Origin: a virus | Taxonomy: Duplodnaviria; Heunggongvirae; Uroviricota; Caudoviricetes | Virus record (IMG/VR): IMGVR_UViG_2609459800_000003 | Direction: 5' to 3' (one strand) | Length of the DNA stretch: 36,024 bases | Notes under the pieces: generated by a model | The model's input: the letters and a program-made list of their open reading frames with translations, nothing else | Told to the model about the DNA's origin: nothing | Database searches by the model: none | Part shown: positions 3,671 to 28,977 of the stretch, piece by piece | How positions within the stretch are numbered: the stretch's first letter is position 1 | Layout of the letters: every line of letters begins with the position of its first letter | Position numbers and translations under genes: made by a program

Positions 3671-3894
3671 TGCCGGACAACGTAGATTTTATTCAGGAAC
3701 AACAGGCTGAATTACTGGAGCGTCAGATTAACGCGGCAAGGGTAAAACATTGCGGTGCTTCTGCGCTGGTTTGCGAAGAGTGTGACGCGCCAATACCTGC
3801 TGCCCGTCGTGCGGCTTATCCGTCAGCCACGCGTTGTGTTTCCTGCCAGTCAGTCTTTGAAGCAAAAAACAAACATTACCGGAGAACGGCATGA
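3670..3894 (+). CDS. TraR/DksA-like C4 zinc-finger protein (P2 orf82 position)
   Basis: 74 aa with CxxC...CxxC (CEEC...CVSC); ATG overlaps the upstream stop (TAATG). Confidence 0.7.
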   Translation: MPDNVDFIQEQQAELLERQINAARVKHCGASALVCEECDAPIPAARRAAYPSATRCVSCQSVFEAKNKHYRRTA

Positions 3895-4166: not shown

Positions 4167-6441
4167 AGCCTCCGGGCGTTTTGTCCCTCCGTCAGCATTT
4201 GCCGCAGGCACCGGTAAGGCGTTTGCCGGTGCTTATGCATGGAACGCGCCACGCGAGGCTGTCGGGCGCGAAAGACCCCTTACACGTGACGAGATGCGTC
4301 AGGTGCAAGGTGTTTTATCCACGATTAACCGCCTGCCTTACTTTTTGCGCTCGCTGTTTACTTCACGCTATGACTACATCCGGCGCAATAAAAGCCCGGT
4401 GCACGGGTTTTATTTCCTCACATCCACTTTTCAGCGTCGTTTATGGCCGCGCATTGAGCGTGTGAATCAGCGCCATGAAATGAACACCGACGCGTCGTTG
4501 CTGTTTCTGGCAGAGCGTGACCACTATGCGCGCCTGCCGGGAATGAATGACAAGGAGCTGAAAAAGTTTGCTGCCCGTATCTCATCGCAGCTTTTCATGA
4601 TGTATGAGGAACTCTGTGATGCCTGGGTGGATGCGCATGGCGAAAAAGAATCGCTGTTTACGGATGAGGCGCAGGCTCACCTCTATGGTCATGTTGCTGG
4701 CGCTGCACGTGCTTTCAATATTTCCCCTCTCTACTGGAAAAAATACCGTAAAGGGCAGATGACCACGAGGCAGGCATATTCTGCCATTGCCCGTCTGTTT
4801 AACGATGAGTGGTGGACTCATCAGCTTAAAGGCCAGCGTATGCGCTGGCATGAGGCGTTACTGATTGCTGTCGGGGAGGTAAATAAAGACCGTTCACCTT
4901 ATGCCAGTAAACATGCCATTCGTGATGTGCGTGCGCGCCGCCAGGCAAATCTGGAATTTCTTAAATCGTGTGACCTTGAAAACAGGGAAACCGGCGAACG
5001 CATCGACCTTATCAGTAAGGTGATGGGCAGTATTTCTAATCCTGAAATTCGCCGGATGGAGCTGATGAACACCATTGCCGGTATTGAGCGTTACGCCGCC
5101 GCAGAGGGTGATGTGGGGATGTTTATCACGCTGACCGCGCCGTCAAAGTATCACCCGACTCGTCAGGTCAGAAAAGGCGAAAGTAAAACCGTTCAGCTTA
5201 ATCACGGCTGGAACGATGAGGCATTTAATCCAAAGGATGCGCAGCGTTATCTCTGCCGCATCTGGAGCCTGATGCGCACGGCATTCAAGGATAATGATTT
5301 ACAGGTCTACGGTTTGCGTGTCGTCGAGCCACACCACGACGGAACGCCGCACTGGCATATGATGCTTTTTTGTAATCCACGCCAGCGTAACCAGATTATC
5401 GAAATCATGCGTCGCTATGCGCTCAAAGAGGATGGTGACGAAAGAGGAGCCGCGCGAAACCGTTTTCAGGCAAAACACCTTAACCGGGGCGGTGCTGCGG
5501 GATATATCGCAAAATACATCTCAAAAAATATCGACGGCTATGCACTGGATGGTCAGCTCGATAACGATACCGGCAGGCCGCTGAAAGACACTGCAGCGGC
5601 TGTTACCGCATGGGCGTCAACGTGGCGCATCCCGCAATTTAAAACGGTTGGTCTGCCGACAATGGGGGCTTACCGTGAACTACGCAAATTGCCTCGCGGC
5701 GTCAGCATTGCTGATGAGTTTGACGAGCGCGTCGAGGCTGCACGCGCCGCTGCAGACAGTGGTGATTTTGCGTTGTATATCAGCGCGCAGGGCGGGGCAA
5801 ATGTCCCGCGCGATTGTCAGACTGTCAGGGTCGCCCGTAGCCCGTCGGATGACGTTAACGAGTACGAGGAAGAAGTCGAGAGAGTGGTCGGCATTTACGC
5901 GCCGCATCTCGGCGCGCGTCATATTCATATCACCAGAACGACGGACTGGCGCATTGTGCCGAAAGTGCCGGTCGTTGAGCCTTTGACTTTAAAAAGCGGC
6001 ATCGCCGCGCCTCGGAGTCCTGTCAATAACTGTGGAAAGCTCTCCGGTGGTGATACTTCGTTACCGGTTCCCACACCTTCTGAACATGCCGCAGCCGTGC
6101 TTAATCTGGTTGATGACGGTGTTATCGAATGGAATGAGCCAGAGGTCGTGAGGGCGCTCAGAGGTGCATTAAAACACGGACTGAGAACACCAAATCGTCA
6201 GCAGAGAAACGGAAGCCTGTTAAAACCACATGAAATAGCGCCATCGGCCAGACTGACCCGGTCGGAACGAACGCAAATTACCCGTATCCGCGTTGACCTT
6301 GCTCAGAACGGTATCAGGCCGCAGCGATGGGAGATTGAGGCGCTGGCGCGTGGGGCAACCGTAAATTATGACGGGAAAAAATTCACGTATCCGGTCGCTG
6401 ATGAGTGGCCGGGATTCTCAACAGTAATGGAGTGGACATGA
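4156..6441 (+). CDS. A: rolling-circle replication initiator A (nickase)
   Basis: 761 aa from ATG 4156 (MAVKASGRFVPP...), the N-terminus I recall for P2 A; the track ORF from 4114 is an upstream extension. Conserved HxH-type motif (PHWHMMLF) and tyrosine-containing region (GYIAKYISKN) typical of phiX174/P2-type Rep proteins. Confidence 0.95.
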   Translation: MAVKASGRFVPPSAFAAGTGKAFAGAYAWNAPREAVGRERPLTRDEMRQVQGVLSTINRLPYFLRSLFTSRYDYIRRNKSPVHGFYFLTSTFQRRLWPRIERVNQRHEMNTDASLLFLAERDHYARLPGMNDKELKKFAARISSQLFMMYEELCDAWVDAHGEKESLFTDEAQAHLYGHVAGAARAFNISPLYWKKYRKGQMTTRQAYSAIARLFNDEWWTHQLKGQRMRWHEALLIAVGEVNKDRSPYASKHAIRDVRARRQANLEFLKSCDLENRETGERIDLISKVMGSISNPEIRRMELMNTIAGIERYAAAEGDVGMFITLTAPSKYHPTRQVRKGESKTVQLNHGWNDEAFNPKDAQRYLCRIWSLMRTAFKDNDLQVYGLRVVEPHHDGTPHWHMMLFCNPRQRNQIIEIMRRYALKEDGDERGAARNRFQAKHLNRGGAAGYIAKYISKNIDGYALDGQLDNDTGRPLKDTAAAVTAWASTWRIPQFKTVGLPTMGAYRELRKLPRGVSIADEFDERVEAARAAADSGDFALYISAQGGANVPRDCQTVRVARSPSDDVNEYEEEVERVVGIYAPHLGARHIHITRTTDWRIVPKVPVVEPLTLKSGIAAPRSPVNNCGKLSGGDTSLPVPTPSEHAAAVLNLVDDGVIEWNEPEVVRALRGALKHGLRTPNRQQRNGSLLKPHEIAPSARLTRSERTQITRIRVDLAQNGIRPQRWEIEALARGATVNYDGKKFTYPVADEWPGFSTVMEWT

Positions 6442-6893
6442 TGGCAAAAATTCACGAGGTAAAGCTGCACGCAAAATATTTCGACCTTGTGCTGGAAGGA
6501 AAGAAACGCGCAGAGTTTAGGAAAAATGACCGTAATTATGAGCACGGGGACACGTTGATTTTGCATGAATGGGTGCAGGGTGTGTATACGGGGCGAAAGG
6601 TTGAAGTCCGGATAACAGATGTTACTGACCTGTCAGATTGGCTGGAAGATTATGTCTTGCTAAGTATTGAGCTGCTTAATACAGGCGCATATGAGATTGT
6701 GAACTGGAAAGAACTTAGTGAGCGTGGTCTGGTATTCAGAATTAATCATGAAATTATGCATCAGCTCGGCCTTGCTGTTATGTATGAACCAGAGACGGGG
6801 ATGTCTGGCGGGGCAATGGTTGCCACGGATGGAGCATGGAACTATTCAGATGAACAGATGGAGCGTGCACCGCAAAACGGGTGGCTTGGATAA
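6438..6893 (+). CDS. DUF3850/ASCH-like (PUA-fold) domain protein with uncharacterised C-terminal extension
   Basis: ATG 6438 overlaps the A stop (ATGA) and follows GGAGTGG; N-terminal about 75 aa (HEVKLHAKYFDLVLEGKKRAEFRKNDRNYEHGDTLILHEW) fits the DUF3850/ASCH pattern as I remember it. The track start at 6405 is GTG inside A. Confidence 0.6.
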   Translation: MMAKIHEVKLHAKYFDLVLEGKKRAEFRKNDRNYEHGDTLILHEWVQGVYTGRKVEVRITDVTDLSDWLEDYVLLSIELLNTGAYEIVNWKELSERGLVFRINHEIMHQLGLAVMYEPETGMSGGAMVATDGAWNYSDEQMERAPQNGWLG

Positions 6894-7646: not shown

Positions 7647-8408
7647 ATGTTTGCTTTATTAATTATTCCATTACTTGTGAGTGGTTATATTGTATTAACC
7701 ACTCATCCTTATCATTTCTATAGATTACACCGTTATGATGGGCAGTTGTTATATATGAAGTCAGCCGCCTTTGGTCTGTGGTGTTTTATATGGACATTGA
7801 TTATAGCTTACTTAATAAAATGGATATGTCCGAGCTTCCATCCTGTCACGATGGTTCGGGAACAATTAGATCTCAAACTTAGTGACAATGGTACTGAAAG
7901 AATCATAGGATGGATGATTTTACTTTCATGTGGATCGATATTTTTGGCTTGGATATGGAGTGCCGGTGCTAGATATTTGGTTATATATAGAGCTAAAATT
8001 ATAAATTATATCCAAGGGGTAAAGGCTGCCAATATTGATTATGAGAATCTTGTCATGCTAAGGATGAGGCAAGAGCTTATTAATGATAATCCAATGGATG
8101 AAATATTTTTTGATTCGTTAGTTGATAGACGTTCAATACTTATTACGTTGCAAAATAAAAAGACATATGTAGGAATTGTTAACGCATTAGGTGAGCCTAA
8201 CGAGAAAGAAGGACCTAACCAGTATGTTTCAATCTATCCTATTATCTCTGGGTATAGAGATAAGGATTCATTGAAAGTAATCTTGGTGAATGAATATAGA
8301 GAACTTGAGGATGCTGATACTAGTATCATCTTTCCACTAAAAGAAATTTCGCAAGTTTCTTGGTTTGATATGGATATTCATAAAATAGTTGAAAATAATA
8401 AGGTGTAG
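7647..8408 (+). CDS. membrane protein with three predicted N-terminal TM helices and a soluble C-terminal domain of about 145 aa, function unknown
   Basis: 253 aa; hydrophobic segments around residues 2-19, 40-59 and 86-105; AT-rich; tightly coupled to the upstream 78-aa ORF; no catalytic motif recognised. Confidence 0.7.
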   Translation: MFALLIIPLLVSGYIVLTTHPYHFYRLHRYDGQLLYMKSAAFGLWCFIWTLIIAYLIKWICPSFHPVTMVREQLDLKLSDNGTERIIGWMILLSCGSIFLAWIWSAGARYLVIYRAKIINYIQGVKAANIDYENLVMLRMRQELINDNPMDEIFFDSLVDRRSILITLQNKKTYVGIVNALGEPNEKEGPNQYVSIYPIISGYRDKDSLKVILVNEYRELEDADTSIIFPLKEISQVSWFDMDIHKIVENNKV

Positions 8409-8411
8409 TAA

Positions 8412-8436
8412 ATGGTCACCTATAAAAGGTGACCAT
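8412..8436. terminator. bidirectional hairpin between convergent cargo operons
   Basis: Perfect 10-bp inverted repeat ATGGTCACCT / AGGTGACCAT with 5-nt loop, between the stop at 8408 (+) and the stop at 8442 (-); T-rich stretch on the + side. Confidence 0.5.
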
Positions 8437-8441
8437 AATGC

Positions 8442-10706
8442 TTATTTTTGACGAATCCTGATTTTTGGTTGTTCACGAACAACAATATCAGTTTCTTTCC
8501 AACCAAGATTATTTATTTCAACCTCGGCTTCGTTGTAGACTGTAGTAGAATTGGCAAGAGATCTTAACGTAATAGCCAATACAGCACGTTGAGGTGAAGA
8601 TAGAGGCTCTTGCTCTGCTCGTCTCTGAACATCAAGTTTAAGTCTCCATTGCTCCCCATTTATACCTTGCGGAAATTGTTTTCTATAAACTTTGACTGGA
8701 GACCATTTGAAGCCATTTTCTATCAGTACCTTTTCAAATAATTCACTCTTTTCTTTTATTTGTGGAATTTTTCCGCTATGTATCCATTTAGCGTTAACTG
8801 GATCATAAGTGTAAGTCCCGAATGACACATCCACATTAGAACGGCAATATTCAGATGGGTAGTCATAATCAAGCGGTGGAGAATAAACGAGTGTCATAAT
8901 AATTTCACCTGTGAATTTTCCATCCTCAGTACGTAATGACTGTGGTATTACAAATGGCGTTCTACTGAATTCAATACCTTCTCGGGTATCTATTTCAAAT
9001 AGAAATGTAATCTCATTTTTATTGCAACCAATAATATCATTTATATGATCGCTTGGACGTCCAAATCCTTGATAATTAAACGCATAATGCTCCGTTTTGG
9101 CTGGTGAGTTTTTTAACGCAGAATGAATTAATAGTGCCTTGATACGTTCAGGCGATGGTGAAATAGAACCATTAACATCTAGTTCATGCCACAGTGATGC
9201 CGCTAAACTTGAGATTAACGGTGCTGATAAACTTGTGCCAATACTTTCGCAAAGAGCATTGTCCTCGCCAATAGCTATGATTCCGGTATGTTCACAGTTT
9301 AATTTACTGTCACAATTACCTCCAAAGTGATTTATCTCTGGTTTGGGTATAAAGGCTGGGCCGGGACCTCTTCTAGAAAAAGATGAAGGTTCAAATCTTT
9401 TGACCACAGAGTCAGACGATTCTAAATGGGCAACTGAGCCAACAGTTAATGAACGAACAGAATCTGCGGGGGCTGATATTCTGTCATGCCCACCTAATTC
9501 TTGAGGAGGCCAGGTTCGTTGAGGATCATAAATGTAGTTGCCGGATGCTACGACGAAAAGACAATCATGCTCATCATGAAGTGCATTTAAAAAATGCCCC
9601 AATTCAGAGAAGCTGTCTTCAGAACATGGGGATTGACAACCTAATGACAGGTTCCATACACGTACTTCTGGATAGGTGGTCACAGCCTCTCGGATAGCTT
9701 TCATTAATTGTGGCAATTTGAGCGTACCATCTTTGGGAAAGGCTGCAACATCAACAATTTCAGCTTGGCATTGAGGAAAACCAGCATAGTTATTCAACCA
9801 TCTTCCATTAATTGCTAAACTTGCAACCATGTTCCCATGAGAATAGTCGTGTTCTCCTTTTACTAAATCTAAACTATCCCAAATCCATGGCCTAAGTATG
9901 TTGTTATTGGGATCGACTCCGCTATCTATAATTCCGAGTAGTGGATAATGTTTATCCTCTTGAGGTAAGGGAAAATCATCTAGGTCTAGAGTTTCAGCAG
10001 GAATATATTGCGATACTGTATGAGTAAGACCAAATGTTGGCATAGGTTCTAATTTTCGTATGCCAATAAAACTTGCCAGTTGGGCGATGTTATCATTCCC
10101 TTTTACTTCATATATACTCAAATCTGAACTGATATCATACTTTTTGGGTTTTTGTATTCCTAGTTCATCTGCAAATTCCATTAATTCTTTGTCGATACTG
10201 CGGTTAGTTGTTCTATCTTTATGGTCAAAGAGTTTCAGAAGAAAACTATCTGATTTATTTTTATCTATAACATCATGGTTAAGACTAAAAGGTTCGATCT
10301 TTTCAATTACAGCAATATGTACTGTCCCATTATGAGAATTAGTGCTATTTTCAATTTTTTTGCGAAGTTGTGCTAACCCTTTTTCAGTAACACTTATAAG
10401 TAATTCTCCAAAATTATCACTGCCTATTACGGGACATGTATTATCACCTAATAGGCTTGATGGGCGATGTGACTTAGCAAGAGCTTTTTCATGAAGAGTA
10501 ACTCTAGCCACCGCCGGTATATTGGGCCATTTTTTAAATGAGCTCTGGAAAAAATTTTTAACGTCATCGACTTCTTGTTTGAGTCTATTTTTTAGACTAG
10601 TTGTTACTGTTCGGATAGGTTGTTTCTTTCCGAAATTATATGTTTTTTCAGTAAAATCTTGAGGTGTCGCCTCAATTATTTTTATTGGTCTTTCTTTGTT
10701 ACTCAT
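8442..10706 (-). CDS. subtilisin-like serine protease (peptidase S8), cytoplasmic; IetS-like
   Basis: 754 aa; full subtilase signature: Asp (GIIDSGVD), His (HGNMVASLAING), oxyanion Asn (VVASGNY), Ser (GTSLSAPLISSLAA); no N-terminal signal peptide; N- and C-terminal extensions of about 250 aa each around the catalytic core; start overlaps the stop of the upstream ATPase. Confidence 0.9.
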   Translation of the reverse strand: MSNKERPIKIIEATPQDFTEKTYNFGKKQPIRTVTTSLKNRLKQEVDDVKNFFQSSFKKWPNIPAVARVTLHEKALAKSHRPSSLLGDNTCPVIGSDNFGELLISVTEKGLAQLRKKIENSTNSHNGTVHIAVIEKIEPFSLNHDVIDKNKSDSFLLKLFDHKDRTTNRSIDKELMEFADELGIQKPKKYDISSDLSIYEVKGNDNIAQLASFIGIRKLEPMPTFGLTHTVSQYIPAETLDLDDFPLPQEDKHYPLLGIIDSGVDPNNNILRPWIWDSLDLVKGEHDYSHGNMVASLAINGRWLNNYAGFPQCQAEIVDVAAFPKDGTLKLPQLMKAIREAVTTYPEVRVWNLSLGCQSPCSEDSFSELGHFLNALHDEHDCLFVVASGNYIYDPQRTWPPQELGGHDRISAPADSVRSLTVGSVAHLESSDSVVKRFEPSSFSRRGPGPAFIPKPEINHFGGNCDSKLNCEHTGIIAIGEDNALCESIGTSLSAPLISSLAASLWHELDVNGSISPSPERIKALLIHSALKNSPAKTEHYAFNYQGFGRPSDHINDIIGCNKNEITFLFEIDTREGIEFSRTPFVIPQSLRTEDGKFTGEIIMTLVYSPPLDYDYPSEYCRSNVDVSFGTYTYDPVNAKWIHSGKIPQIKEKSELFEKVLIENGFKWSPVKVYRKQFPQGINGEQWRLKLDVQRRAEQEPLSSPQRAVLAITLRSLANSTTVYNEAEVEINNLGWKETDIVVREQPKIRIRQK

Positions 10707-11866
10707 AATATCTCTCTATAGTTCTTAGTTAGCCTTGACACTTTAGCATTTGAAAGCCCTAGTATTTTTGCTATCTTTCGTATTGTAAATCTTTTGGGAT
10801 TGTATTCTCTGAGAGTGGTCACAATCTTTATAAGTAAATTATCTTCTTCATCAAATGTAACTCCCTTCGCTTCTAAGATAGCCTCGACTAAAAATCGGGT
10901 ATCGATTTGTTTATTATTGTAAACCAGAGCGTGTCGCTCAGATCTTAAGCAGCATTGTTCTATAAATGAGCAGTTTAGCCCTGAGGATATTTCCGCAAGG
11001 TCATCAACAAAATCGTCATATGTGGCTTTTATGTTTGAATATTGTTCAAATAGTTGTTTTCTGACTTCAAAATCAGGCAATCCAATAGATATTCTATACT
11101 CAAAGCGCCTCCAAACTGCGCTATCTAGAAGATTTTCATGATTACTTGCAGCAATCAATATTGTTTCTTCAGGTAGATTGTCAATATTTTGCAATAAAGA
11201 AACCACCACCCTCTTCAGTTCACCTAACTCATGCTGATCATCTCTAGCCTTTGCTAGAGAATCTAGTTCATCTAGAAATAAAACACATGGTGCTTTACTT
11301 GCATACTCAAATAGCTGCCTGATATTTTTAGAAGTAGACCCCAGATATGATGAGACTAAGGAGTCACATCTTGCAGTAAGAAGCGGTAAATTTAGACAGG
11401 ATGCAATATATTTTGATGTCAAGGTTTTACCACAACCTGGTGGCCCATATAAAATCATAGAGGATGTCACGCCAAGACCGGCATCCTTTAATTCTTTAGC
11501 TCGTTCAGTGAAAGTCAAAAATTCTTTAATTTTTTTCAGAGTGCTATCTTTCAACAATGGGAGTTGAATTTCAGAAGACGGTTGAGTTACGTCTGCTAAA
11601 TCAAATTTAGTTTCTTTATCTACAGGTAATGTATCAAGACGTTCAAAAATAGGTGATGTACTACGTGATACTTTCTGCAAGTTAAACGTGTTTTTATCTT
11701 GAATACTACCTCTAATGGCTGAAGCAAGCTCAGGCAGCCCCATAGAATCATAGGAACGCGCGAGTTTCGAAGCCTGCCGAACAAAAGCAACTTTATCCCC
11801 TTTGAGTCCAAGACTGATAAGCTGCGAAAGTATCTCGTTTGTGGTCATTTGTGATACAAACCTCAT
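10703..11866 (-). CDS. classic-clade AAA+ ATPase with C-terminal HTH-like tail; IetA-like
   Basis: 387 aa; Walker A GPPGCGKT, Walker B VLFLDELD, sensor-1/arginine-finger region (AASN...WRRFEYRISIGLP); C-terminal KRFTIRKIAKILGLSNAKVSRLTK resembles an HTH. Start codon uncertain (ATG at 11866 has no clear SD; an in-frame ATG lies 18 nt downstream). Confidence 0.9.
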   Translation of the reverse strand: MRFVSQMTTNEILSQLISLGLKGDKVAFVRQASKLARSYDSMGLPELASAIRGSIQDKNTFNLQKVSRSTSPIFERLDTLPVDKETKFDLADVTQPSSEIQLPLLKDSTLKKIKEFLTFTERAKELKDAGLGVTSSMILYGPPGCGKTLTSKYIASCLNLPLLTARCDSLVSSYLGSTSKNIRQLFEYASKAPCVLFLDELDSLAKARDDQHELGELKRVVVSLLQNIDNLPEETILIAASNHENLLDSAVWRRFEYRISIGLPDFEVRKQLFEQYSNIKATYDDFVDDLAEISSGLNCSFIEQCCLRSERHALVYNNKQIDTRFLVEAILEAKGVTFDEEDNLLIKIVTTLREYNPKRFTIRKIAKILGLSNAKVSRLTKNYREIL

Positions 11867-23967: not shown

Positions 23968-26178
23968 ATGAGCACAAAATTCAAAACCGTTATCACCACT
24001 GCCGGTGCAGCAAAGCTGGCAGCGGCAACCGCACCGGGAGGGCGGAAGGTCAACATTACCACGATGGCCGTCGGGGATGGCGGTGGTAAATTGCCTGTCC
24101 CGGATGCCGGACAGACCGGGCTTATCCATGAAGTCTGGCGACATGCGCTGAACAAAATCAGCCAGGACAAACGAAACAGTAATTATATTATCGCAGAGCT
24201 GGTTATTCCGCCGGAGGTGGGCGGTTTCTGGATGCGTGAGCTTGGCCTGTACGATGATGCGGGAACATTAATTGCCGTGGCGAACATGGCCGAAAGTTAT
24301 AAGCCAGCTCTTGCCGAAGGCTCAGGGCGTTCGCAGACCTGTCGCATGGTCATCATCGTCAGCAGTATGGCCTCAGTGGCGCTGACCATTGACACCACAA
24401 CGGTGATGGCGACGCAGGATTACGTTGATGACAAAATTGCAGAGCATGAACAGTCACGACGTCACCCGGACGCCTCGCTGACCGCAAAAGGTTTTACTCA
24501 GTTAAGCAGTGCGATCAACAGCACGTCTGAAACACTGGCCGCAACGCCGAAAGCGGTAAAGGCCGCGTATGATCTTGCTAACGGGAAATACACTGCGCAG
24601 GATGCCACCACAGCGCGAAAAGGCCTTGTCCAGCTCAGTAGCGCCACCAACAGCACGTCTGAAACGCTCGCCGCAACACCAAAAGCGGTAAAGGCAGCAT
24701 ATGACCTTGCTAACGGGAAATACACTGCACAGGACGCCACCACAGCGCGAAAAGGTCTTGTCCAGCTCAGTAGCGCCACCAACAGCGATTCTGAAACGCT
24801 TGCAGCAACGCCAAAGGCGGTTAAGACAGCGTATGACCTTGCTAACGGGAAATACACTGCGCAGGATGCCACCACGGCGCGAAAAGGCCTTGTCCAGCTC
24901 AGTAGCGCCACCAACAGTGATTCTGAAACGCTGGCCGCAACACCAAAAGCAGTGAAGTCTGCCTATGACAATGCTGAAAAACGTCTTCAGAAAGATCAGA
25001 ACGGTGCGGATATTCCGGGAAAGGATACCTTCACGAAAAATATCGGTGCCTGTCGTGCTTATAGCGGCGCTTTGAGCACTGAAGCCGGAAACTGGACAAC
25101 CGCTCAGTTTATTGACTGGCTAGAGTCTCAGGGAGCCTTTAATCATCCCTACTGGATGTGCAAGTGTTCCTGGTCATACGGTAATAACAAAATTATTACC
25201 GATACTGACTGTGGGACTATTCATCTTGCAGGTTGCGTGATTGAGGTTATGGGCGTTAAAGCTGCAATGACCATTCGTGTGACCACTCCGAGTACATCAA
25301 GTGGTGGTGGTACCACCAGTGCGCAATTCACGTATATCAATCACGGAGCTGATTATGCGCCGGGCTGGCGACGCGACTACAATACGAAAAATAAGCAACC
25401 GGCTTTTGCATTAGGGAAAACAGGAAATACGGTTGCAAATAATAAAGCGGTAGGATGGAACTGGGACAGTGGTGCTTATTGTGCACAGGATGGCGGAGCA
25501 TCAAAAATGGTGTTGCATTTTTACACGGGTGAGGGAAGTTGTCCGGCAATGCAGTTTCTTGTGGATTATAAAAACAGGGGGATTTTTTACAGGTCGGCAC
25601 GTGATGGGTATGGATTTGAGGCTGACTGGTCAGAGTTTTATACCACATCACGAAAGCCAACACCTGCGGATATTCTTGCTCTGGCATTATCAGGCGGAAG
25701 CATGTCAGGCAGCATAAAATTTATCAATGATGCCTTCCTGATTTGGGAAAGAAACACTGACTGGGCGAAAATTGGATTTAAAAATGATTCAGATGCTGAT
25801 TCTGACTCATACATGTGGTTTGAAACTGGTGATAATGGCAATGAATATTTTAAATGGCGCATCAGGTCTGGCAGCACAACAAAAGATCTGATGACGCTTA
25901 AGTCTGATGCACTACGGGTTACCGGGCAGGTGATACCATCAAATTTCAGCAATTTTGACTCCCGCTATGTCCGGGATATCCGACTTGGTGGTGCCGCCAC
26001 ATACAAACCTGCGAACAATGGCATGACATGGACACATCAGGCACCGTCCGGGTGTGTATATACCGGCATTATTGTTCAGGATACCGGCTCAAACTCTGCC
26101 GATAACATTGGTGGCGTATATTACAGACCGGTTCAGAAATACATTAACGGGACATGGTACAACGTGGCGCAGGTATAA
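23968..26178 (+). CDS. H: tail fiber protein H, with internal tandem repeats and an AT-richer C-terminal receptor-binding region
   Basis: 736 aa (P2 H is 669 aa as I recall); conserved N-terminal baseplate-attachment region; repeated SETLAATPKAVK-containing units; followed directly by G. Confidence 0.9.
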   Translation: MSTKFKTVITTAGAAKLAAATAPGGRKVNITTMAVGDGGGKLPVPDAGQTGLIHEVWRHALNKISQDKRNSNYIIAELVIPPEVGGFWMRELGLYDDAGTLIAVANMAESYKPALAEGSGRSQTCRMVIIVSSMASVALTIDTTTVMATQDYVDDKIAEHEQSRRHPDASLTAKGFTQLSSAINSTSETLAATPKAVKAAYDLANGKYTAQDATTARKGLVQLSSATNSTSETLAATPKAVKAAYDLANGKYTAQDATTARKGLVQLSSATNSDSETLAATPKAVKTAYDLANGKYTAQDATTARKGLVQLSSATNSDSETLAATPKAVKSAYDNAEKRLQKDQNGADIPGKDTFTKNIGACRAYSGALSTEAGNWTTAQFIDWLESQGAFNHPYWMCKCSWSYGNNKIITDTDCGTIHLAGCVIEVMGVKAAMTIRVTTPSTSSGGGTTSAQFTYINHGADYAPGWRRDYNTKNKQPAFALGKTGNTVANNKAVGWNWDSGAYCAQDGGASKMVLHFYTGEGSCPAMQFLVDYKNRGIFYRSARDGYGFEADWSEFYTTSRKPTPADILALALSGGSMSGSIKFINDAFLIWERNTDWAKIGFKNDSDADSDSYMWFETGDNGNEYFKWRIRSGSTTKDLMTLKSDALRVTGQVIPSNFSNFDSRYVRDIRLGGAATYKPANNGMTWTHQAPSGCVYTGIIVQDTGSNSADNIGGVYYRPVQKYINGTWYNVAQV
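24497..24976. repeat. 132-bp (44-aa) tandem repeat, about 3.6 copies, inside tail fiber gene H
   Basis: Unit starts at about 24499, 24631, 24763 and 24895 (exact 132-bp period), encoding ...AQDATTARKGLVQLSSATNS(T/D)SETLAATPKAVK(A/T/S)AYDLANGKYT...; copies differ by a few substitutions. Confidence 0.9.
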
Positions 26179-26181
26179 TTT

Positions 26182-26709
26182 ATGCAGCATTTGATAAATA
26201 TAACGGCAGGTAATCCAAAAACGGTTGAACAATATCAATTGACAAAGAACTTTGATGTTGTCTGGTTTTTTACAGAAGATGGTAAGAACTGGTACGAAGA
26301 ACAAAAGTATTTTGCTGATGACACGATAAAAATAGCGTACGACAAAGATAATATCATCCGCTATGTGGAAAAGGATGTGACAGCTATCAGACCGGATGGA
26401 TTAAGTGTGGTTGAAGTGGCGGATATTACTGCTAACCGACGGGCGGACATTTCAGGGAACTGGATGTTTAAGGACGGCAAAGTGATTAAACGCATTTATA
26501 CGACAGAGGAATTGCAGCAGCAGGCAGAAAATCGGAAAGCCAGACTTCTTGCAGATGCTGAATCCGTAATTTTGCCGCTGGAACGCGCTGTCAGGCTGAA
26601 TATGGCGACGGATGAAGAGCGCACACGACTGGAAGCATGGGAACGCTACAGCGTTCTGGTCAGTCGTGTGGATCCTGCAAATCCTGAATGGCCGGAAATG
26701 CCGCAATAA
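26182..26709 (+). CDS. G: tail fiber assembly chaperone G
   Basis: 175 aa as in P2 G; conserved C-terminus ...[14 protein letters not shown]. Confidence 0.9.
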
Positions 26710-26890
26710 GTTGTATGAGCTTACATATCTATTGCGTAGAGTAAAGCATAATCTGACAGTCCGCTCTGTGCCAGAAGCGGACGTAGCGGCAGCATACATA
26801 ACCTTATGATTTCTTAAAATTTTCCGCTTGGTTTCTGATTGACTAATGAAAATTAATTGAAATTATAAAGCATTCGCAGTAACTTGTGCG

Positions 26891-27136
26891 GTGCCGATAA
26901 TTTCATTCTACCCAATATCATTTATGATTGTAGATAAGAGTAGTGAAAAATATAACAACGGATATAGTGTTGCAATACCACTTGGAGCCGTGAAAATGGA
27001 ACTGGCCGATGATGTACTAAAAATAAACCTTTCATCATGGAATGATATTAAAACAGGATTTCCTTACACAGGGATTAATGAGTATGAGTTACTCATATTA
27101 GATGAGAATCTTTCATTTATAACTTATAAAAAATAA
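26891..27136 (+). CDS. hypothetical small protein at the Z/fun locus (start uncertain)
   Basis: The track start at 26891 is GTG; in-frame ATGs at 26924 and 26996, the latter preceded by GGAG (a 46-aa product). AT-rich; no motif recognised. Confidence 0.35.
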   Translation: MPIISFYPISFMIVDKSSEKYNNGYSVAIPLGAVKMELADDVLKINLSSWNDIKTGFPYTGINEYELLILDENLSFITYKK

Positions 27137-27191
27137 CAATTAACAATACTTCACTTATGTGTGAGTGGTTTTAAAGAGTAAATAATTCATA

Positions 27192-27494
27192 ATGGAAAAA
27201 AGTATGACAATTGAAACCATAAAAATACTAGCGGCAATTAGTAGCATCATTGGTTCTATGATTCTTGCCTATCGAGTTACAGGGATTCTTGCAGCACTTT
27301 CTCTTGCAATAAATTGCCATGAAGAAAACATTAAACAATTAATGCCAACCAATAAGGGGGATGTTTATTATCTCGCAAATGCAACTACGCACGTTAAAAA
27401 TGCGCAAAAGAAACCGCTTCTAATCACGGGGTTTATCTTTCTAATTGCATCTGGTTTTTTGCAGTTTACAGCGTTGATAATGGCAAATATTTAA
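27192..27494 (+). CDS. small membrane protein with two predicted TM helices, Z/fun locus cargo
   Basis: 100 aa; hydrophobic segments around residues 10-30 and 75-98; AT-rich; weak Shine-Dalgarno; followed by a terminator at 27664..27690. Confidence 0.5.
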   Translation: MEKSMTIETIKILAAISSIIGSMILAYRVTGILAALSLAINCHEENIKQLMPTNKGDVYYLANATTHVKNAQKKPLLITGFIFLIASGFLQFTALIMANI

Positions 27495-27663
27495 CAATGG
27501 AATGATACCACCGGTGGTGCGGCTGAAACGATTTGTACGTCATTTAAGCCGCATCGAAATTTAAAGTAACGTCCGCAATTCGCTCCAAGCAGACTGTCAG
27601 ATTTGATAGCGTTTCGGCTATGTAAATAGTCAGTCGGAAAATAAGTGAGTACAAATCAGGACA

Positions 27664-27690
27664 GGCGGGCGAATTGCCCGCCTTTTCTTT
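27664..27690 (+). terminator. rho-independent terminator closing the Z/fun cargo, upstream of the FI late promoter
   Basis: GGCGGGC-gaatt-GCCCGCC hairpin followed by TTTTCTTT. Confidence 0.6.
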
Positions 27691-27786
27691 ATCTGTTGTT
27701 TCATCCACTGACCAGCCAGGTCAAATAGCGTCTCATGCACTGCCCAACAGAAAATAGTTGCACCCATTAACCACGGAGTTAAACGG

Positions 27787-28977
27787 ATGAGTGACTATCA
27801 TCACGGCGTGCAGGTGCTGGAGATTAACGACGGCACCCGCGTCATTTCCACCGTATCCACCGCCATTGTTGGCATGGTCTGCACGGCCAGCGATGCGGAT
27901 GCGGAAATCTTCCCCCTCAATAAACCGGTGCTGATTACCAATGTGCAGAGCGCAATTGCAAAGGCCGGTAAAAAAGGCACGCTGGCGGCGTCGTTACAGG
28001 CCATCGCTGACCAGTCAAAACCGGTCACCGTTGTCGTACGTGTGGAAGACGGCACTGGCGACGACGAGGAAACGAAACTCGCGCAGACCGTTTCCAATAT
28101 CATCGGCACTACCGACGAAAACGGTCAGTACACCGGACTGAAAGCCCTGCTGGCGGCGGAGTCGGTAACCGGTGTTAAACCGCGTATTCTCGGTGTGCCG
28201 GGGCTGGATACCAAAGAGGTGGCTGTTGCACTGGCATCAGTCTGTCAGAAGCTGCGCGCTTTCGGGTATATCAGCGCATGGGGCTGTAAAACCATTTCCG
28301 AGGTGAAAGCTTACCGCCAGAATTTCAGCCAGCGTGAGCTGATGGTCATCTGGCCGGATTTCCTCGCATGGGATACGGTCGCCAGTACCACCGCCACCGC
28401 GTATGCCACCGCCCGTGCGCTGGGTCTGCGCGCTAAAATCGACCAGGAGCAGGGCTGGCATAAAACGCTGTCCAACGTCGGGGTGAACGGTGTTACCGGC
28501 ATCAGCGCATCTGTATTCTGGGATTTGCAGGAGTCCGGTACTGATGCTGACCTGCTTAACGAGTCAGGTGTCACTACGCTGATTCGCCGCGACGGTTTCC
28601 GCTTCTGGGGTAACCGTACCTGCTCTGATGACCCGCTGTTCCTCTTTGAAAACTACACCCGCACCGCGCAGGTGTTGGCCGACACGATGGCTGAGGCGCA
28701 CATGTGGGCGGTGGATAAGCCCATCACCGCAACGCTGATTCGCGACATCGTTGACGGCATCAATGCCAAATTCCGTGAGCTGAAAACAAACGGCTATATC
28801 GTGGATGCGACCTGCTGGTTCAGCGAAGAATCCAACGATGCGGAAACCCTCAAGGCCGGAAAACTGTATATCGACTACGACTATACACCGGTGCCTCCTC
28901 TCGAAAACCTGACCCTGCGCCAGCGTATTACCGATAAATACCTGGCAAATCTGGTCACCTCGGTTAACAGCAATTAA
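27787..28977 (+). CDS. FI: tail sheath protein FI
   Basis: 396 aa as in P2 FI; GGAG Shine-Dalgarno. Confidence 0.93.
   Translation: MSDYHHGVQVLEINDGTRVISTVSTAIVGMVCTASDADAEIFPLNKPVLITNVQSAIAKAGKKGTLAASLQAIADQSKPVTVVVRVEDGTGDDEETKLAQTVSNIIGTTDENGQYTGLKALLAAESVTGVKPRILGVPGLDTKEVAVALASVCQKLRAFGYISAWGCKTISEVKAYRQNFSQRELMVIWPDFLAWDTVASTTATAYATARALGLRAKIDQEQGWHKTLSNVGVNGVTGISASVFWDLQESGTDADLLNESGVTTLIRRDGFRFWGNRTCSDDPLFLFENYTRTAQVLADTMAEAHMWAVDKPITATLIRDIVDGINAKFRELKTNGYIVDATCWFSEESNDAETLKAGKLYIDYDYTPVPPLENLTLRQRITDKYLANLVTSVNSN

What the first reader, a model, noticed from the sequence alone, without database searches (positions are those of the whole stretch)
26710..27786. AT-rich cargo at the second P2 hotspot (Z/fun locus between G and FI): two small ORFs, one a two-helix membrane protein
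The G-to-FI interval holds about 1.1 kb of strongly AT-rich DNA with an 81-aa ORF (GTG start, or a 46-aa product from an ATG with a good Shine-Dalgarno) and a 100-aa protein with two predicted TM helices, closed by a clean terminator. In P2 this position carries Z/fun, which excludes phage T5, and in related prophages it is a known hotspot for small anti-phage genes. The membrane protein is a plausible superinfection-exclusion factor that I cannot match to a named one.
Basis: partly seen in the sequence, partly recalled or inferred. Interest (0 to 1): 0.6.

Follow-up and report, generated by a model that had tools for sequence, protein, structure and literature searches.

The report
Decayed two-gene cargo in P2 hotspot
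The AT-rich DNA between the tail genes G and FI of this P2-like prophage is what remains of an imported gene cassette after a 1.9-kb internal deletion: the first "small ORF" is only the tail end of a lost 280-aa gene, and the second is an intact, conserved 96-aa membrane protein of unknown, possibly phage-defence, function.

Summary
In detail: 26710-27786 is foreign, AT-rich DNA (cargo 34% GC against 51% for the window) at the known P2 Z/fun hotspot, bounded by the inverted-repeat arms already annotated in P2 Z-region records. ORF1 (81/70/46 aa) is not a gene. It is the last 79 codons of a 280-aa protein that is intact in Pectobacterium, Klebsiella, Serratia and other Enterobacterales and has a CxxC..DHVPP..CxxCN (HNH-like, tentative) motif. 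A 1,875-bp deletion with a 2-nt microhomology at 26897/26898 fused this stub to the promoter and leader of a lost 301-aa gene. ORF2 is real. Its start is ATG 27204 (96 aa, not 100). It has two hydrophobic helices, dN/dS of 0.19-0.45, and about 66 clusters at 50% identity across Gamma- and Betaproteobacteria. It always has low GC, sits on mobile elements, and often lies beside recognised defence genes. It matches no Pfam, NCBIfam, PADLOC, PHROG, PDB or phage-record entry and is unrelated to P2 Fun(Z). The terminator and the pF promoter belong to the P2 backbone. ORF2's function is inferred only: most likely an autonomous inner-membrane protective (exclusion or abortive-infection) factor, possibly an inert relic of a two-gene module. 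This is ordinary hotspot cargo with a modestly interesting orphan membrane-protein family.

The parts
26750..26784 (.). Left inverted-repeat arm (AATCTGACAGTCCGC...GCGGACGT); P2 backbone homology ends at 26784
   Evidence: the repeat finder pair I1, 35 nt, 77% complementary; same element annotated 'left inverted repeat' in AJ512677; boundary from blastn against L003/L004; arm also present in P2-EC31, TUM18781, pro147, L030 and L019
26785..26896 (+). Cassette promoter and 5' leader that originally served a now-deleted 301-aa gene; sigma-70-like TTGACT (26839) - 16 nt - TG-AATTAT (26866)
   Evidence: 87-93% identical to the region upstream of the 301-aa gene in Edwardsiella L005 (3673-3819) and E. 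coli TUM1880 L019 (3491-3632); promoter-like site from the consensus scan only
26897..26898 (.). Deletion junction (..GTGCCGAT|AATTTC..), 2-nt AT microhomology; about 1,875 bp missing relative to the Edwardsiella cassette
   Evidence: The two blastn blocks abut at 26897/26898; the parental sequences are L005 ..GTGTCGAT|GGTATAG (3819) and ..GTTCAAT|AATTTCATTC (5695)
26897..27136 (+).
   Evidence: tblastn of P0098 residues 202-280 gives 94.9% identity; alignment A2; the stub matches only positions 198-257 of 269 of phrog_21495, whereas the full protein matches at E 2.5e-43
27204..27494 (+). ORF2: intact 96-aa two-helix inner-membrane protein (WP_032185273.1) of a conserved uncharacterised family
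   Evidence: 28 clusters at 61-99% identity; 66 clusters at 50% identity with E<=1e-3 in 1.84 billion proteins; alignment A1 with 22 invariant positions; dN/dS 0.19-0.45; hydropathy; AF2 pLDDT 74.5 with helices 3-46, 52-67 and 70-95
27518..27553 (+). Hairpin (GCGGCTGAAACGA / TCATTTAAGCCGC) downstream of ORF2 that travels with the gene in Enterobacterales
   Evidence: Inverted repeat I5; DNA homology to Leclercia and P. aroidearum runs from ATG 27204 to 27552-27562; alignment A3
27569..27603 (.). Right inverted-repeat arm; P2 backbone homology resumes at 27567
   Evidence: annotated 'right inverted repeat' in the AJ5126xx records
27663..27691 (+). Intrinsic-terminator-like hairpin plus T-run; a P2 backbone feature, not cargo
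   Evidence: Terminator scan; conserved in P2 NC_001895 and in TUM18781
27694..27786 (+). P2 late promoter pF region (activator-binding site to FI start), mapped by alignment to the annotated P2 features
   Evidence: P2 annotation transferred through alignment A4; coordinates are approximate

Best explanation
The interval is a mobile cassette bounded by inverted repeats and lodged in the P2 Z/fun hotspot. It has since lost about 1.9 kb by an illegitimate internal deletion. Its ancestor resembled the cassette in an Edwardsiella tarda lambdoid prophage: promoter, 301-aa membrane protein, 280-aa HNH-like metal-binding protein, 96-aa two-helix membrane protein. The deletion removed the 301-aa gene and the first 201 codons of the 280-aa gene, including its putative catalytic motif. 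That joined the cassette promoter to a non-functional 79-codon stub (ORF1) followed by the intact 96-aa gene (ORF2). Shown: the anatomy, the deletion, and that ORF2 is a real gene under purifying selection that is horizontally mobile. Inferred: in the lysogen ORF2 is transcribed from the cassette promoter and inserts into the inner membrane with both termini outside and a roughly 35-residue basic loop (invariant R24, H39-E40, N42, AQK) in the cytoplasm. Also inferred: it acts alone as a protective factor for the lysogen, either blocking genome entry in the manner of small superinfection-exclusion proteins or collapsing the membrane on infection. Confidence in the anatomy is about 0.9. Confidence in an autonomous protective role for ORF2 is about 0.4. 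The overall figure given is for the whole statement, function included.
For: Anatomy: two collinear blastn blocks against L005 (87% and 92%) abut at 26897/26898, with microhomology at the junction. The stub equals residues 202-280 of P0098 and matches only the C-terminal end of phrog_21495. The window is 95.3% identical to P. brasiliense L029 from the stub through the right repeat arm. Only 2 of 5,426 complete E. coli genomes carry this cargo and no phage record does. ORF2 as a real and autonomous gene: dN/dS is 0.19-0.45. It is intact at 96 aa in all E. coli variants, while the stub shows stop-loss and C-terminal changes. The exact protein occurs on 189 contigs. Homologs occur without the 280-aa partner in Leclercia, Dickeya, P. 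aroidearum, Halomonas, Thioploca, Pseudohongiella and Sulfuriferula. ORF2 GC is 35-44% even in 63%-GC hosts. Defence context: neighbours include PDC-S49/KAP NTPase, PDC-S26, a GajB-like helicase, PDC-S31, a SLATT 2TM effector, AbiEi/AbiEii, putAbiC, HEPN, a TdeIII restriction enzyme and an HNH/PtuB-like nuclease. The locus is a recognised defence hotspot holding about 16% of the defence systems found in P2-like prophages (PMC13586616; PMC9122126). Topology: hydropathy and a loop charge of +2, and the AF2 helices.
Against: There is no functional homology of any kind: no match in Pfam, NCBIfam, PADLOC, PHROGs or PDB sequences, and Foldseek gave nothing significant against PDB or BFVD. Defence-island context is only guilt by association, and mobile-element cargo in general shows similar neighbourhoods. 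Within ORF2's closest clade (>=81% identity) it is consistently paired with the 280-aa gene, so it may need that partner. Its Shine-Dalgarno sequence here is weak (GGA, 9 nt upstream). The promoter is a 9/12 consensus match, and such matches are no more frequent than in shuffled sequence. The deletion is recent (0 differences in ORF2 between the two complete genomes), so an intact ORF2 in E. coli is weak evidence of selection there.
Confidence: 0.42

Rival explanations
1. Relic of a two-gene system. The 280-aa HNH-like protein and the 96-aa membrane protein work only together, for example as a membrane-anchored sensor plus a nuclease effector. The E. coli P2 copy lost the nuclease, so ORF2 is an inert leftover that has not yet decayed.
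For: The pair is adjacent with a 66-nt spacer in P. brasiliense, L030 and Edwardsiella. Consecutive protein accessions show the same adjacency in Klebsiella, Serratia, Citrobacter/Enterobacterales and Pectobacterium. A different HNH nuclease follows the ORF2 homolog in Sulfuriferula. The deletion is recent, with ORF2 identical in the two complete genomes.
Against: Each gene also occurs alone. ORF2 lacks any 280-aa relative in at least 9 other lineages (tblastn). A 269-aa homolog of the 280-aa protein is the only sizeable annotated cargo gene, with no 2TM partner, at the same locus in phage pro147. The 280-aa gene has been disabled independently, by deletion here and by start loss in Edwardsiella, with ORF2 kept intact in both cases. 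The deleted form is widespread, with the stub on 85 or more contigs.
Confidence: 0.25
2. ORF2 is an immunity or antidote-type membrane protein. It protects either against its own neighbour's toxicity or against a membrane-targeting toxin (bacteriocin, CDI or T6SS effector), and persists as an orphan immunity gene after toxin loss.
For: The upstream partner was repeatedly lost or inactivated while ORF2 was retained, which is the expected decay order for toxin-antidote pairs. Hcp (T6SS_HCP) genes lie directly upstream or nearby in three Pectobacterium loci. Small polytopic inner-membrane proteins are typical immunity proteins for pore-forming toxins (general knowledge).
Against: A DNase-type toxin would need a soluble cytoplasmic immunity protein. 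No toxin domain, secretion signal, PAAR/Rhs or CdiA context was seen. ORF2 is far more conserved than immunity proteins usually are (55-85% identity across orders). Most loci have no T6SS gene.
Confidence: 0.15
3. ORF2 is a holin-like or membrane-toxin addiction gene, or otherwise selfish cargo, with no benefit to the lysogen.
For: It has two TM helices, is small, has conserved polar residues within TM1 (S14, S18, Y23, R24, T26), and is restricted to mobile elements.
Against: It has no charged C-terminal tail, is not in the lysis cassette, and no antitoxin or antisense RNA candidate was found (Rfam found nothing relevant). It is too long for type I toxins. It is stably carried alone in many genomes.
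Confidence: 0.07
4. ORF1 is a functional small protein in its own right: the C-terminal 46-81 residues form an independent domain that is expressed from the fused promoter.
For: The frame is open. A good GGAG Shine-Dalgarno precedes ATG 26996, and the cassette promoter now lies 30-130 nt upstream. The C-terminal region is well conserved in the 280-aa family.
Against: No short form exists outside the E. coli/E. albertii deletion lineage. The stub lacks the invariant CxxC..DH..CxxCN motif. E. coli variants include stop-loss and C-terminal frameshift forms. The AF2 model gives this region pLDDT below 50.
Confidence: 0.05

Closest known systems
P2 Z/fun locus cassettes (Nilsson, Karlsson and Haggard-Ljungquist 2004; GenBank AJ512676-AJ512685) and the P2 'tail-gene' defence hotspot (Rousset et al. 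2022, PMC9122126; PMC13586616)
   Same: Same position between G and FI, the same flanking inverted-repeat arms, AT-rich foreign DNA with its own promoter, and cargo that varies between prophages.
   Different: The cargo itself is unrelated to Fun(Z), which is 528 aa on the minus strand, and to the other sequenced Z-region ORFs. No phage record matches it even at the protein level. It is an internally deleted cassette, and PMC13586616 reports that pseudogenes with similarity to defence genes are rare in P2.
Small inner-membrane superinfection-exclusion proteins (T4 Imm, HK97 gp15, P22 SieA/SieB); comparison from general knowledge
   Same: It is encoded by a prophage or mobile element, is a small (<100 aa) polytopic inner-membrane protein, is a single gene with no enzymatic domain, and is expressed from a moron-type promoter.
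   Different: No sequence or fold similarity was detected and no exclusion phenotype is known. Unlike those proteins, this family spreads across Gamma- and Betaproteobacteria on ICEs and islands as well as prophages.
Two-TM effector proteins of multi-gene defence systems (SLATT/2TM effectors of CBASS, Pycsar and DRT; Rst_2TM_1TM_TIR of P2-like phage AC1)
   Same: Two TM helices, defence-island neighbourhoods, and sometimes adjacency to a nuclease.
   Different: No match to any PADLOC 2TM or SLATT model. It is smaller than SLATT domains and has no conserved sensor or signal-generating partner.
HNH / endonuclease VII (beta-beta-alpha-Me) nucleases, as the parent of the ORF1 stub
   Same: The 280-aa family has an invariant CxxCG...LTKDHVPP...CSxCNN motif. 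Several concordant weak hits to HNH_5 and to HNH and EndoVII PHROGs fall on that region.
   Different: All hits are below family thresholds, there is no PDB sequence hit, and the AF2 model is unreliable. The motif region is entirely missing from the window.

Membership tests
P2 Fun(Z) (T5 exclusion) | Homology to the 528-aa Fun(Z) protein of P2 | tested here: not met
   tblastn of both ORFs against 50,697 phage records, including P2, gave no match at E<=1. P2 fun(Z) is a 1,587-nt gene on the opposite strand.
P2 Z/fun hotspot cassette | Located between tail-fibre assembly gene G and sheath gene FI | tested here: met
   G (Caudo_TAP, E 8.7e-35) ends at 26709 and FI (Phage_sheath, E 1e-33) starts at 27787.
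P2 Z/fun hotspot cassette | Variable DNA bounded by the conserved left and right inverted repeats | tested here: met
   Arms at 26750-26784 and 27569-27603. Backbone homology ends and resumes at their inner edges. The same arms occur in P2, P2-EC31, pro147 and TUM18781.
phrog_21495 / 280-aa metal-binding (HNH-like) protein family | Full-length protein (about 270-280 aa) containing the CxxC..DHVPP..CxxCN motif | tested here: not met
   The window retains only residues 202-280; the motif region (residues 22-82) is deleted.
HNH endonuclease (for the intact 280-aa parent) | Score above the Pfam HNH family threshold, or a beta-beta-alpha-Me fold | tested here: inconclusive
   HNH_5 scored 16.8-18.1 bits against a cutoff of 27.5. 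PHROG HNH/EndoVII hits had E 0.05-0.17. hhalign aligns the motif with a bona fide HNH protein at 13% probability. The AF2 model has pLDDT 48.6. There were no PDB hits.
Known anti-phage defence systems (PADLOC-DB v2) | Match to any defence-protein HMM | tested here: not met
   No hit for ORF1, ORF2, the 280-aa protein or the 301-aa protein at E<=10 or E<=0.1.
Superinfection-exclusion membrane proteins (Imm/gp15/Sie type) | Small inner-membrane protein encoded by a prophage | tested here: met
   96 aa with two hydrophobic helices, inside a complete P2-like prophage.
Superinfection-exclusion membrane proteins (Imm/gp15/Sie type) | Blocks genome entry or plating of superinfecting phage | not testable with these tools
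   This needs phage challenge of a strain expressing ORF2.
Class II holins | Two TM helices plus a charged C-terminal tail, encoded in the lysis cassette | tested here: not met
   The C-terminus is ..LIMANI with no charge, and the gene lies in the Z locus, not with the lysis genes.
SLATT / 2TM effectors | Match to SLATT or PADLOC 2TM-effector profiles | tested here: not met
   No Pfam or PADLOC hit for ORF2, whereas a neighbouring gene in P. aroidearum does hit these models.

The most novel reading that the evidence does not exclude
The 96-aa protein defines a new, widely mobile family of stand-alone membrane-embedded anti-phage (exclusion or abortive-infection) factors. Alternatively, together with the 280-aa HNH-like protein it forms a new two-gene defence system, of which this prophage carries a natural partner-less variant. 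That variant would show whether the membrane component works alone.
Probability: 0.3. Interest if true: 0.5.

Novelty: new member of a known kind. Interest (0 to 1): 0.3.

Why it matters
The P2 tail-gene hotspot is an established source of anti-phage genes, and roughly a fifth of P2-like prophages carry only unannotated genes at their defence loci (PMC13586616). This case contributes three things. First, it is a worked example of a hotspot cassette decaying by internal deletion instead of being swapped out whole, which that study describes as uncommon. Second, it shows that the same repeat-bounded cassette moves between a P2-like phage, a lambdoid Edwardsiella prophage and integrative islands. 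Third, it identifies a small, strongly conserved orphan membrane-protein family, plus an HNH-like partner family, that are cheap to test for phage defence. If ORF2 proves inactive alone, the locus is just a relic.

Tried and rejected
- **Known families:** Pfam, NCBIfam, PADLOC and PHROGs gave nothing for ORF2.
- **Fold searches:** Foldseek of the ORF2 model against PDB and BFVD returned only generic helical hairpins, with no E<=0.001. The afdb50 library was unavailable.
- **Structure of the 280-aa protein:** the model was too poor (pLDDT 48.6) to search with. PDB sequence searches with the single protein and with a profile found nothing.
- **Conserved partner across all ORF2 loci:** rejected. 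All-against-all blastp of neighbours found only the 280-aa gene, in the closest clade, and the 301-aa gene.
- **Domain fusions in longer family members:** only low-complexity tails.
- **Integron attC reading of the downstream hairpin:** considered by eye and dropped, because core-site matches are at chance level and there is no integrase context.
- **RNA families:** the Rfam scan of the interval found nothing relevant.
- **Plasmids:** no ORF2 homolog in PLSDB.
- **Literature:** no paper in the library mentions these accessions or phrog_21495. The Nilsson 2004 and Odegrip 2006 papers are not held, so statements about them rest on the GenBank annotations and on general knowledge.
Full report
**Setting.** The window is a complete P2-like prophage. 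It runs from integrase through C, cox, B and A, then a cargo locus, Q and P, the head, lysis and tail genes, H (23968-26178), G (26182-26709), FI (27787-28977), FII and onward. The finding covers the G-FI interval, 26710-27786. In phage P2 this interval holds fun(Z), and it is a recognised hotspot for accessory and defence genes (PMC9122126; PMC13586616).

**Observation check.** GC falls to 27-35% in the core of the interval, against 50-58% on either side. The cargo proper is 33.8% GC and the window 50.7%. The reported ORFs exist: 26891-27136 (81 aa from GTG, with internal ATGs at 26924 and 26996) and 27192-27494 (100 aa). A terminator-like hairpin with a T-run sits at 27663-27683. ORF2 has two hydrophobic segments, residues 3-38 and 71-96. 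AlphaFold2 models them as helices 3-46 and 70-95, with a short helix at 52-67 between them (mean pLDDT 74.5).

**Boundaries.** Homology to other P2-like prophages ends at 26784 and resumes at 27567. Those positions are the inner edges of an imperfect inverted repeat, 26750-26784 and 27569-27603. GenBank Z-region records of P2-like ECOR prophages annotate the same elements as left and right inverted repeats. The same arms are present in P2 itself, P2-EC31, pro147 and other E. coli prophages. The right flank, 27567-27786, is conserved with P2 and carries the terminator hairpin and the pF activator site and promoter. The "clean terminator" is therefore part of the backbone, not the cargo. The cargo is rare: only 2 of 5,426 complete E. 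coli genomes carry it (SC480 at 100% identity, VG12A2 at 99.1%). No record among 50,697 phage genomes carries it, even at the protein level.

**ORF1 is a stub.** An all-against-all comparison of genes neighbouring ORF2 homologs showed that the 70-aa form of ORF1 is 86% identical to the C-terminus of a longer protein. That protein lies directly upstream of the ORF2 homolog in Edwardsiella tarda.

At the DNA level the window aligns to that locus (L005) in two collinear blocks:

| Window | L005 | Identity |
|---|---|---|
| 26753-26898 | 3673-3819 | 87% |
| 26897-27594 | 5695-6391 | 92% |

The 1,875 bp between those blocks in L005 are missing from the window. The junction reads GTGCCGAT|AATTTC and shares only the dinucleotide AT between the two parental sequences, which is a typical illegitimate deletion.

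The lost DNA encoded a 301-aa protein with an N-terminal TM helix and the 5' part of the next gene. That gene is a 280-aa protein in Pectobacterium brasiliense and in two metagenomic contigs. Consecutive protein accessions place it next to the 96-aa gene in Klebsiella, Serratia, Citrobacter/Enterobacterales and Pectobacterium versatile as well. The window keeps only codons 202-280, at 94.9% identity to P0098.

PHROGs gives independent support. The full protein matches phrog_21495 at E 2.5e-43, and the window's ORF1 aligns only to positions 198-257 of that 269-position profile. ORF1's GTG start and its first two codons come from the leader of the deleted 301-aa gene.

Among E. coli and E. albertii assemblies the stub shows stop-loss and C-terminal frameshift variants. 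ORF2 is always 96 aa with single substitutions. The numbers are small, but they fit relaxed constraint on the stub alone.

**What the lost gene was.** The 280-aa family has an invariant CxxCG...LTKDHVPP...CSxCNNxVLG motif. It is conserved even in a 35%-identical homolog. Sub-threshold hits fall on that region: Pfam HNH_5 at 17-18 bits against a cutoff of 27.5, and PHROG HNH and endonuclease VII families at E 0.05-0.17. hhalign aligns the motif residues with a bona fide HNH domain at low probability. The structure model was poor and PDB searches were empty. "HNH-like" is therefore tentative; database names such as "metal-binding domain-containing protein" agree with it.

A 269-aa member of this family is the only sizeable annotated cargo gene at the same G-FI locus of the P2-like phage pro147, and it has no membrane-protein partner there. 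In Edwardsiella the reading frame is open but the start is lost through a one-base change in a poly-A run. That is an inactivation independent of the E. coli deletion.

**ORF2 is a real, conserved, mobile gene.**
- **Distribution.** The word-indexed search found 28 clusters at 61-99% identity. They come from Edwardsiella, Pectobacterium, Dickeya, Halomonas and Sulfuriferula, among others. The species-level genome scan added Leclercia, Thioploca, Azoarcus, Pseudohongiella, Competibacter and Aquirhabdus. An exhaustive profile search of 1.84 billion representatives found only 66 clusters at E<=1e-3. Almost all are 90-110 aa, and the longer ones carry only low-complexity tails.
- **Conservation.** The alignment has 22 invariant positions, including I20-L29 (ILAYRVTGIL), C38, N42, and A67-Q68-K69.
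- **Start site.** All members begin at MTIETIK and PGAP uses the same start. The upstream ATG at 27192 is out of frame in the close homologs L005, L029 and L030. The product is therefore 96 aa, from ATG 27204.
- **Selection.** Pairwise dN/dS is 0.19-0.45 at dS up to 0.75.
- **Composition.** ORF2 GC is 35-44% everywhere, even in 63%-GC Halomonas, so it looks horizontally acquired in every host.
- **Topology.** Hydropathy and a loop charge of +2 (five Lys, no Arg) predict both termini outside and a cytoplasmic loop.
- **Downstream hairpin.** DNA homology to Leclercia and P. aroidearum begins at the ATG and runs about 60 nt past the stop, through a hairpin at 27518-27553.

**Context of the family.** Beyond the 280-aa gene in the closest clade, no partner is conserved. 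The loci are prophages (P2-like and lambdoid), a conjugative element, integrase-bounded islands and CP4-57-like islands.

Recognised or candidate defence genes are frequent neighbours:
- PDC-S49/KAP NTPase directly downstream in Edwardsiella.
- PDC-S26 and a GajB-like helicase in P. brasiliense.
- PDC-S31, a SLATT 2TM effector, putAbiC and HEPN in P. aroidearum.
- AbiEi/AbiEii directly upstream in a Halomonas ICE.
- A TdeIII restriction enzyme in Pseudohongiella.
- An HNH/PtuB-like nuclease in Sulfuriferula.

This is guilt by association, not proof.

**The repeat arms travel with the cassette.** Both arms flank the three-gene cassette in the Edwardsiella lambdoid prophage. A left arm precedes the 280-aa/96-aa pair in L030, and a right arm follows it in P. 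brasiliense. A degenerate left arm, with the same promoter and leader, precedes the 301-aa gene in E. coli TUM1880 next to an IS element near icd. The arms therefore behave as portable cassette ends. This fits the site-specific recombination idea in the title of Nilsson et al. 2004, a paper I could not read.

**Mechanism.**
- **Shown:** the anatomy, the deletion, and that ORF2 codes for a protein under constraint.
- **Inferred:** the cassette promoter (TTGACT, 16 nt, TG-AATTAT at 26839-26866) is identical in Edwardsiella. It now drives a transcript through the stub and ORF2 to the hairpin or the backbone terminator. ORF2 is inserted in the inner membrane and acts on its own.
- **Why autonomy is favoured:** ORF2 occurs alone in many lineages, it stays intact where its partner is disabled, and it lies in a defence hotspot and in defence islands. 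I therefore favour an autonomous protective role (exclusion of incoming DNA, or abortive membrane damage) at about 0.4.
- **Alternatives:** a relic of an obligate two-gene module (about 0.25), an immunity or antidote-type protein (about 0.15), a selfish membrane toxin (about 0.07), and a functional ORF1 (about 0.05).

**Comparison with known systems.** The locus is a textbook Z/fun hotspot cassette in position and in its bounding repeats. It is not Fun(Z). ORF2 resembles small superinfection-exclusion proteins such as T4 Imm or HK97 gp15 only in size, membrane location and genomic setting. It is not demonstrably a member of any named family, and it fails the tests for SLATT/2TM effectors, holins and PADLOC models.

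**Verdict.** This is an uncharacterised and partly decayed member of a known kind of element. Interest is modest, resting on an easily testable orphan membrane-protein family and its HNH-like partner.

Noticed in passing
window 7647-11866: The other P2 hotspot (between A and Q) carries a known defence system: IetS (8442-10706, minus strand, PADLOC E 1e-273, subtilase domain) and IetA (10703-11866, minus strand, E 9e-132, AAA ATPase). A 253-aa ORF at 7647-8408 (plus strand) has no Pfam or PADLOC match.
   Followed up: partly
window 6405-6893: A 162-aa ORF with ASCH/DUF3850 and DUF7415 domains lies just after the replication gene A.
   Followed up: no
window 26750-26784 and 27569-27603; L005 3673-3710 and 6365-6391; L030 2740-2774; L029 7275-7309; L019 3482-3516: The Z-locus inverted-repeat arms also bound the same or related cassettes outside P2: in a lambdoid Edwardsiella prophage, a CP4-57-like island, a Pectobacterium integrase island and an IS-flanked E. 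coli locus near icd. They therefore act as portable cassette ends. Each arm also contains its own small hairpin (GTCCGC-N12-GCGGAC).
   Followed up: partly
L005 3888-4793; L019 3702-4607: The deleted 301-aa gene (N-terminal TM helices, no family match) recurs at 96% identity in E. coli TUM1880 and MEI2A-0323 behind the same promoter and leader, but is followed there by an unrelated 375-aa gene. Cassette genes are thus reshuffled individually.
   Followed up: partly
L033 3004-3813 (phage pro147, NC_028896 6990-7799): A 269-aa distant homolog (33% identity) of the 280-aa HNH-like protein is the only sizeable annotated cargo gene at the same G-FI locus of P2-like phage pro147, in the opposite orientation and without a membrane-protein partner.
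   Followed up: partly
L005 5080-5110: In Edwardsiella tarda the 280-aa reading frame is open for residues 2-280, but the ATG is out of frame because the poly-A run at codons 2-4 is one base short. This could be a sequencing error, decay or phase variation. A 183-aa call in Klebsiella quasipneumoniae (ROC62153.1) may be the same event.
   Followed up: no
window 27518-27553: A 13-14-bp hairpin directly after ORF2 is conserved with the gene in Enterobacterales, with one apparent compensatory G-C to A-T change in L030. It has no T-run, so it may be an RNA-stability or recombination element rather than a terminator.
   Followed up: partly
L020/L021 5345-5830; L029 3972-4457: Orphan Hcp (T6SS_HCP) genes lie directly upstream of, or near, the ORF2 homolog in three Pectobacterium islands. 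Those islands otherwise carry defence-type genes, and two strains differ in the variable part (putAbiC+HEPN against SLATT+DUF2971).
   Followed up: no
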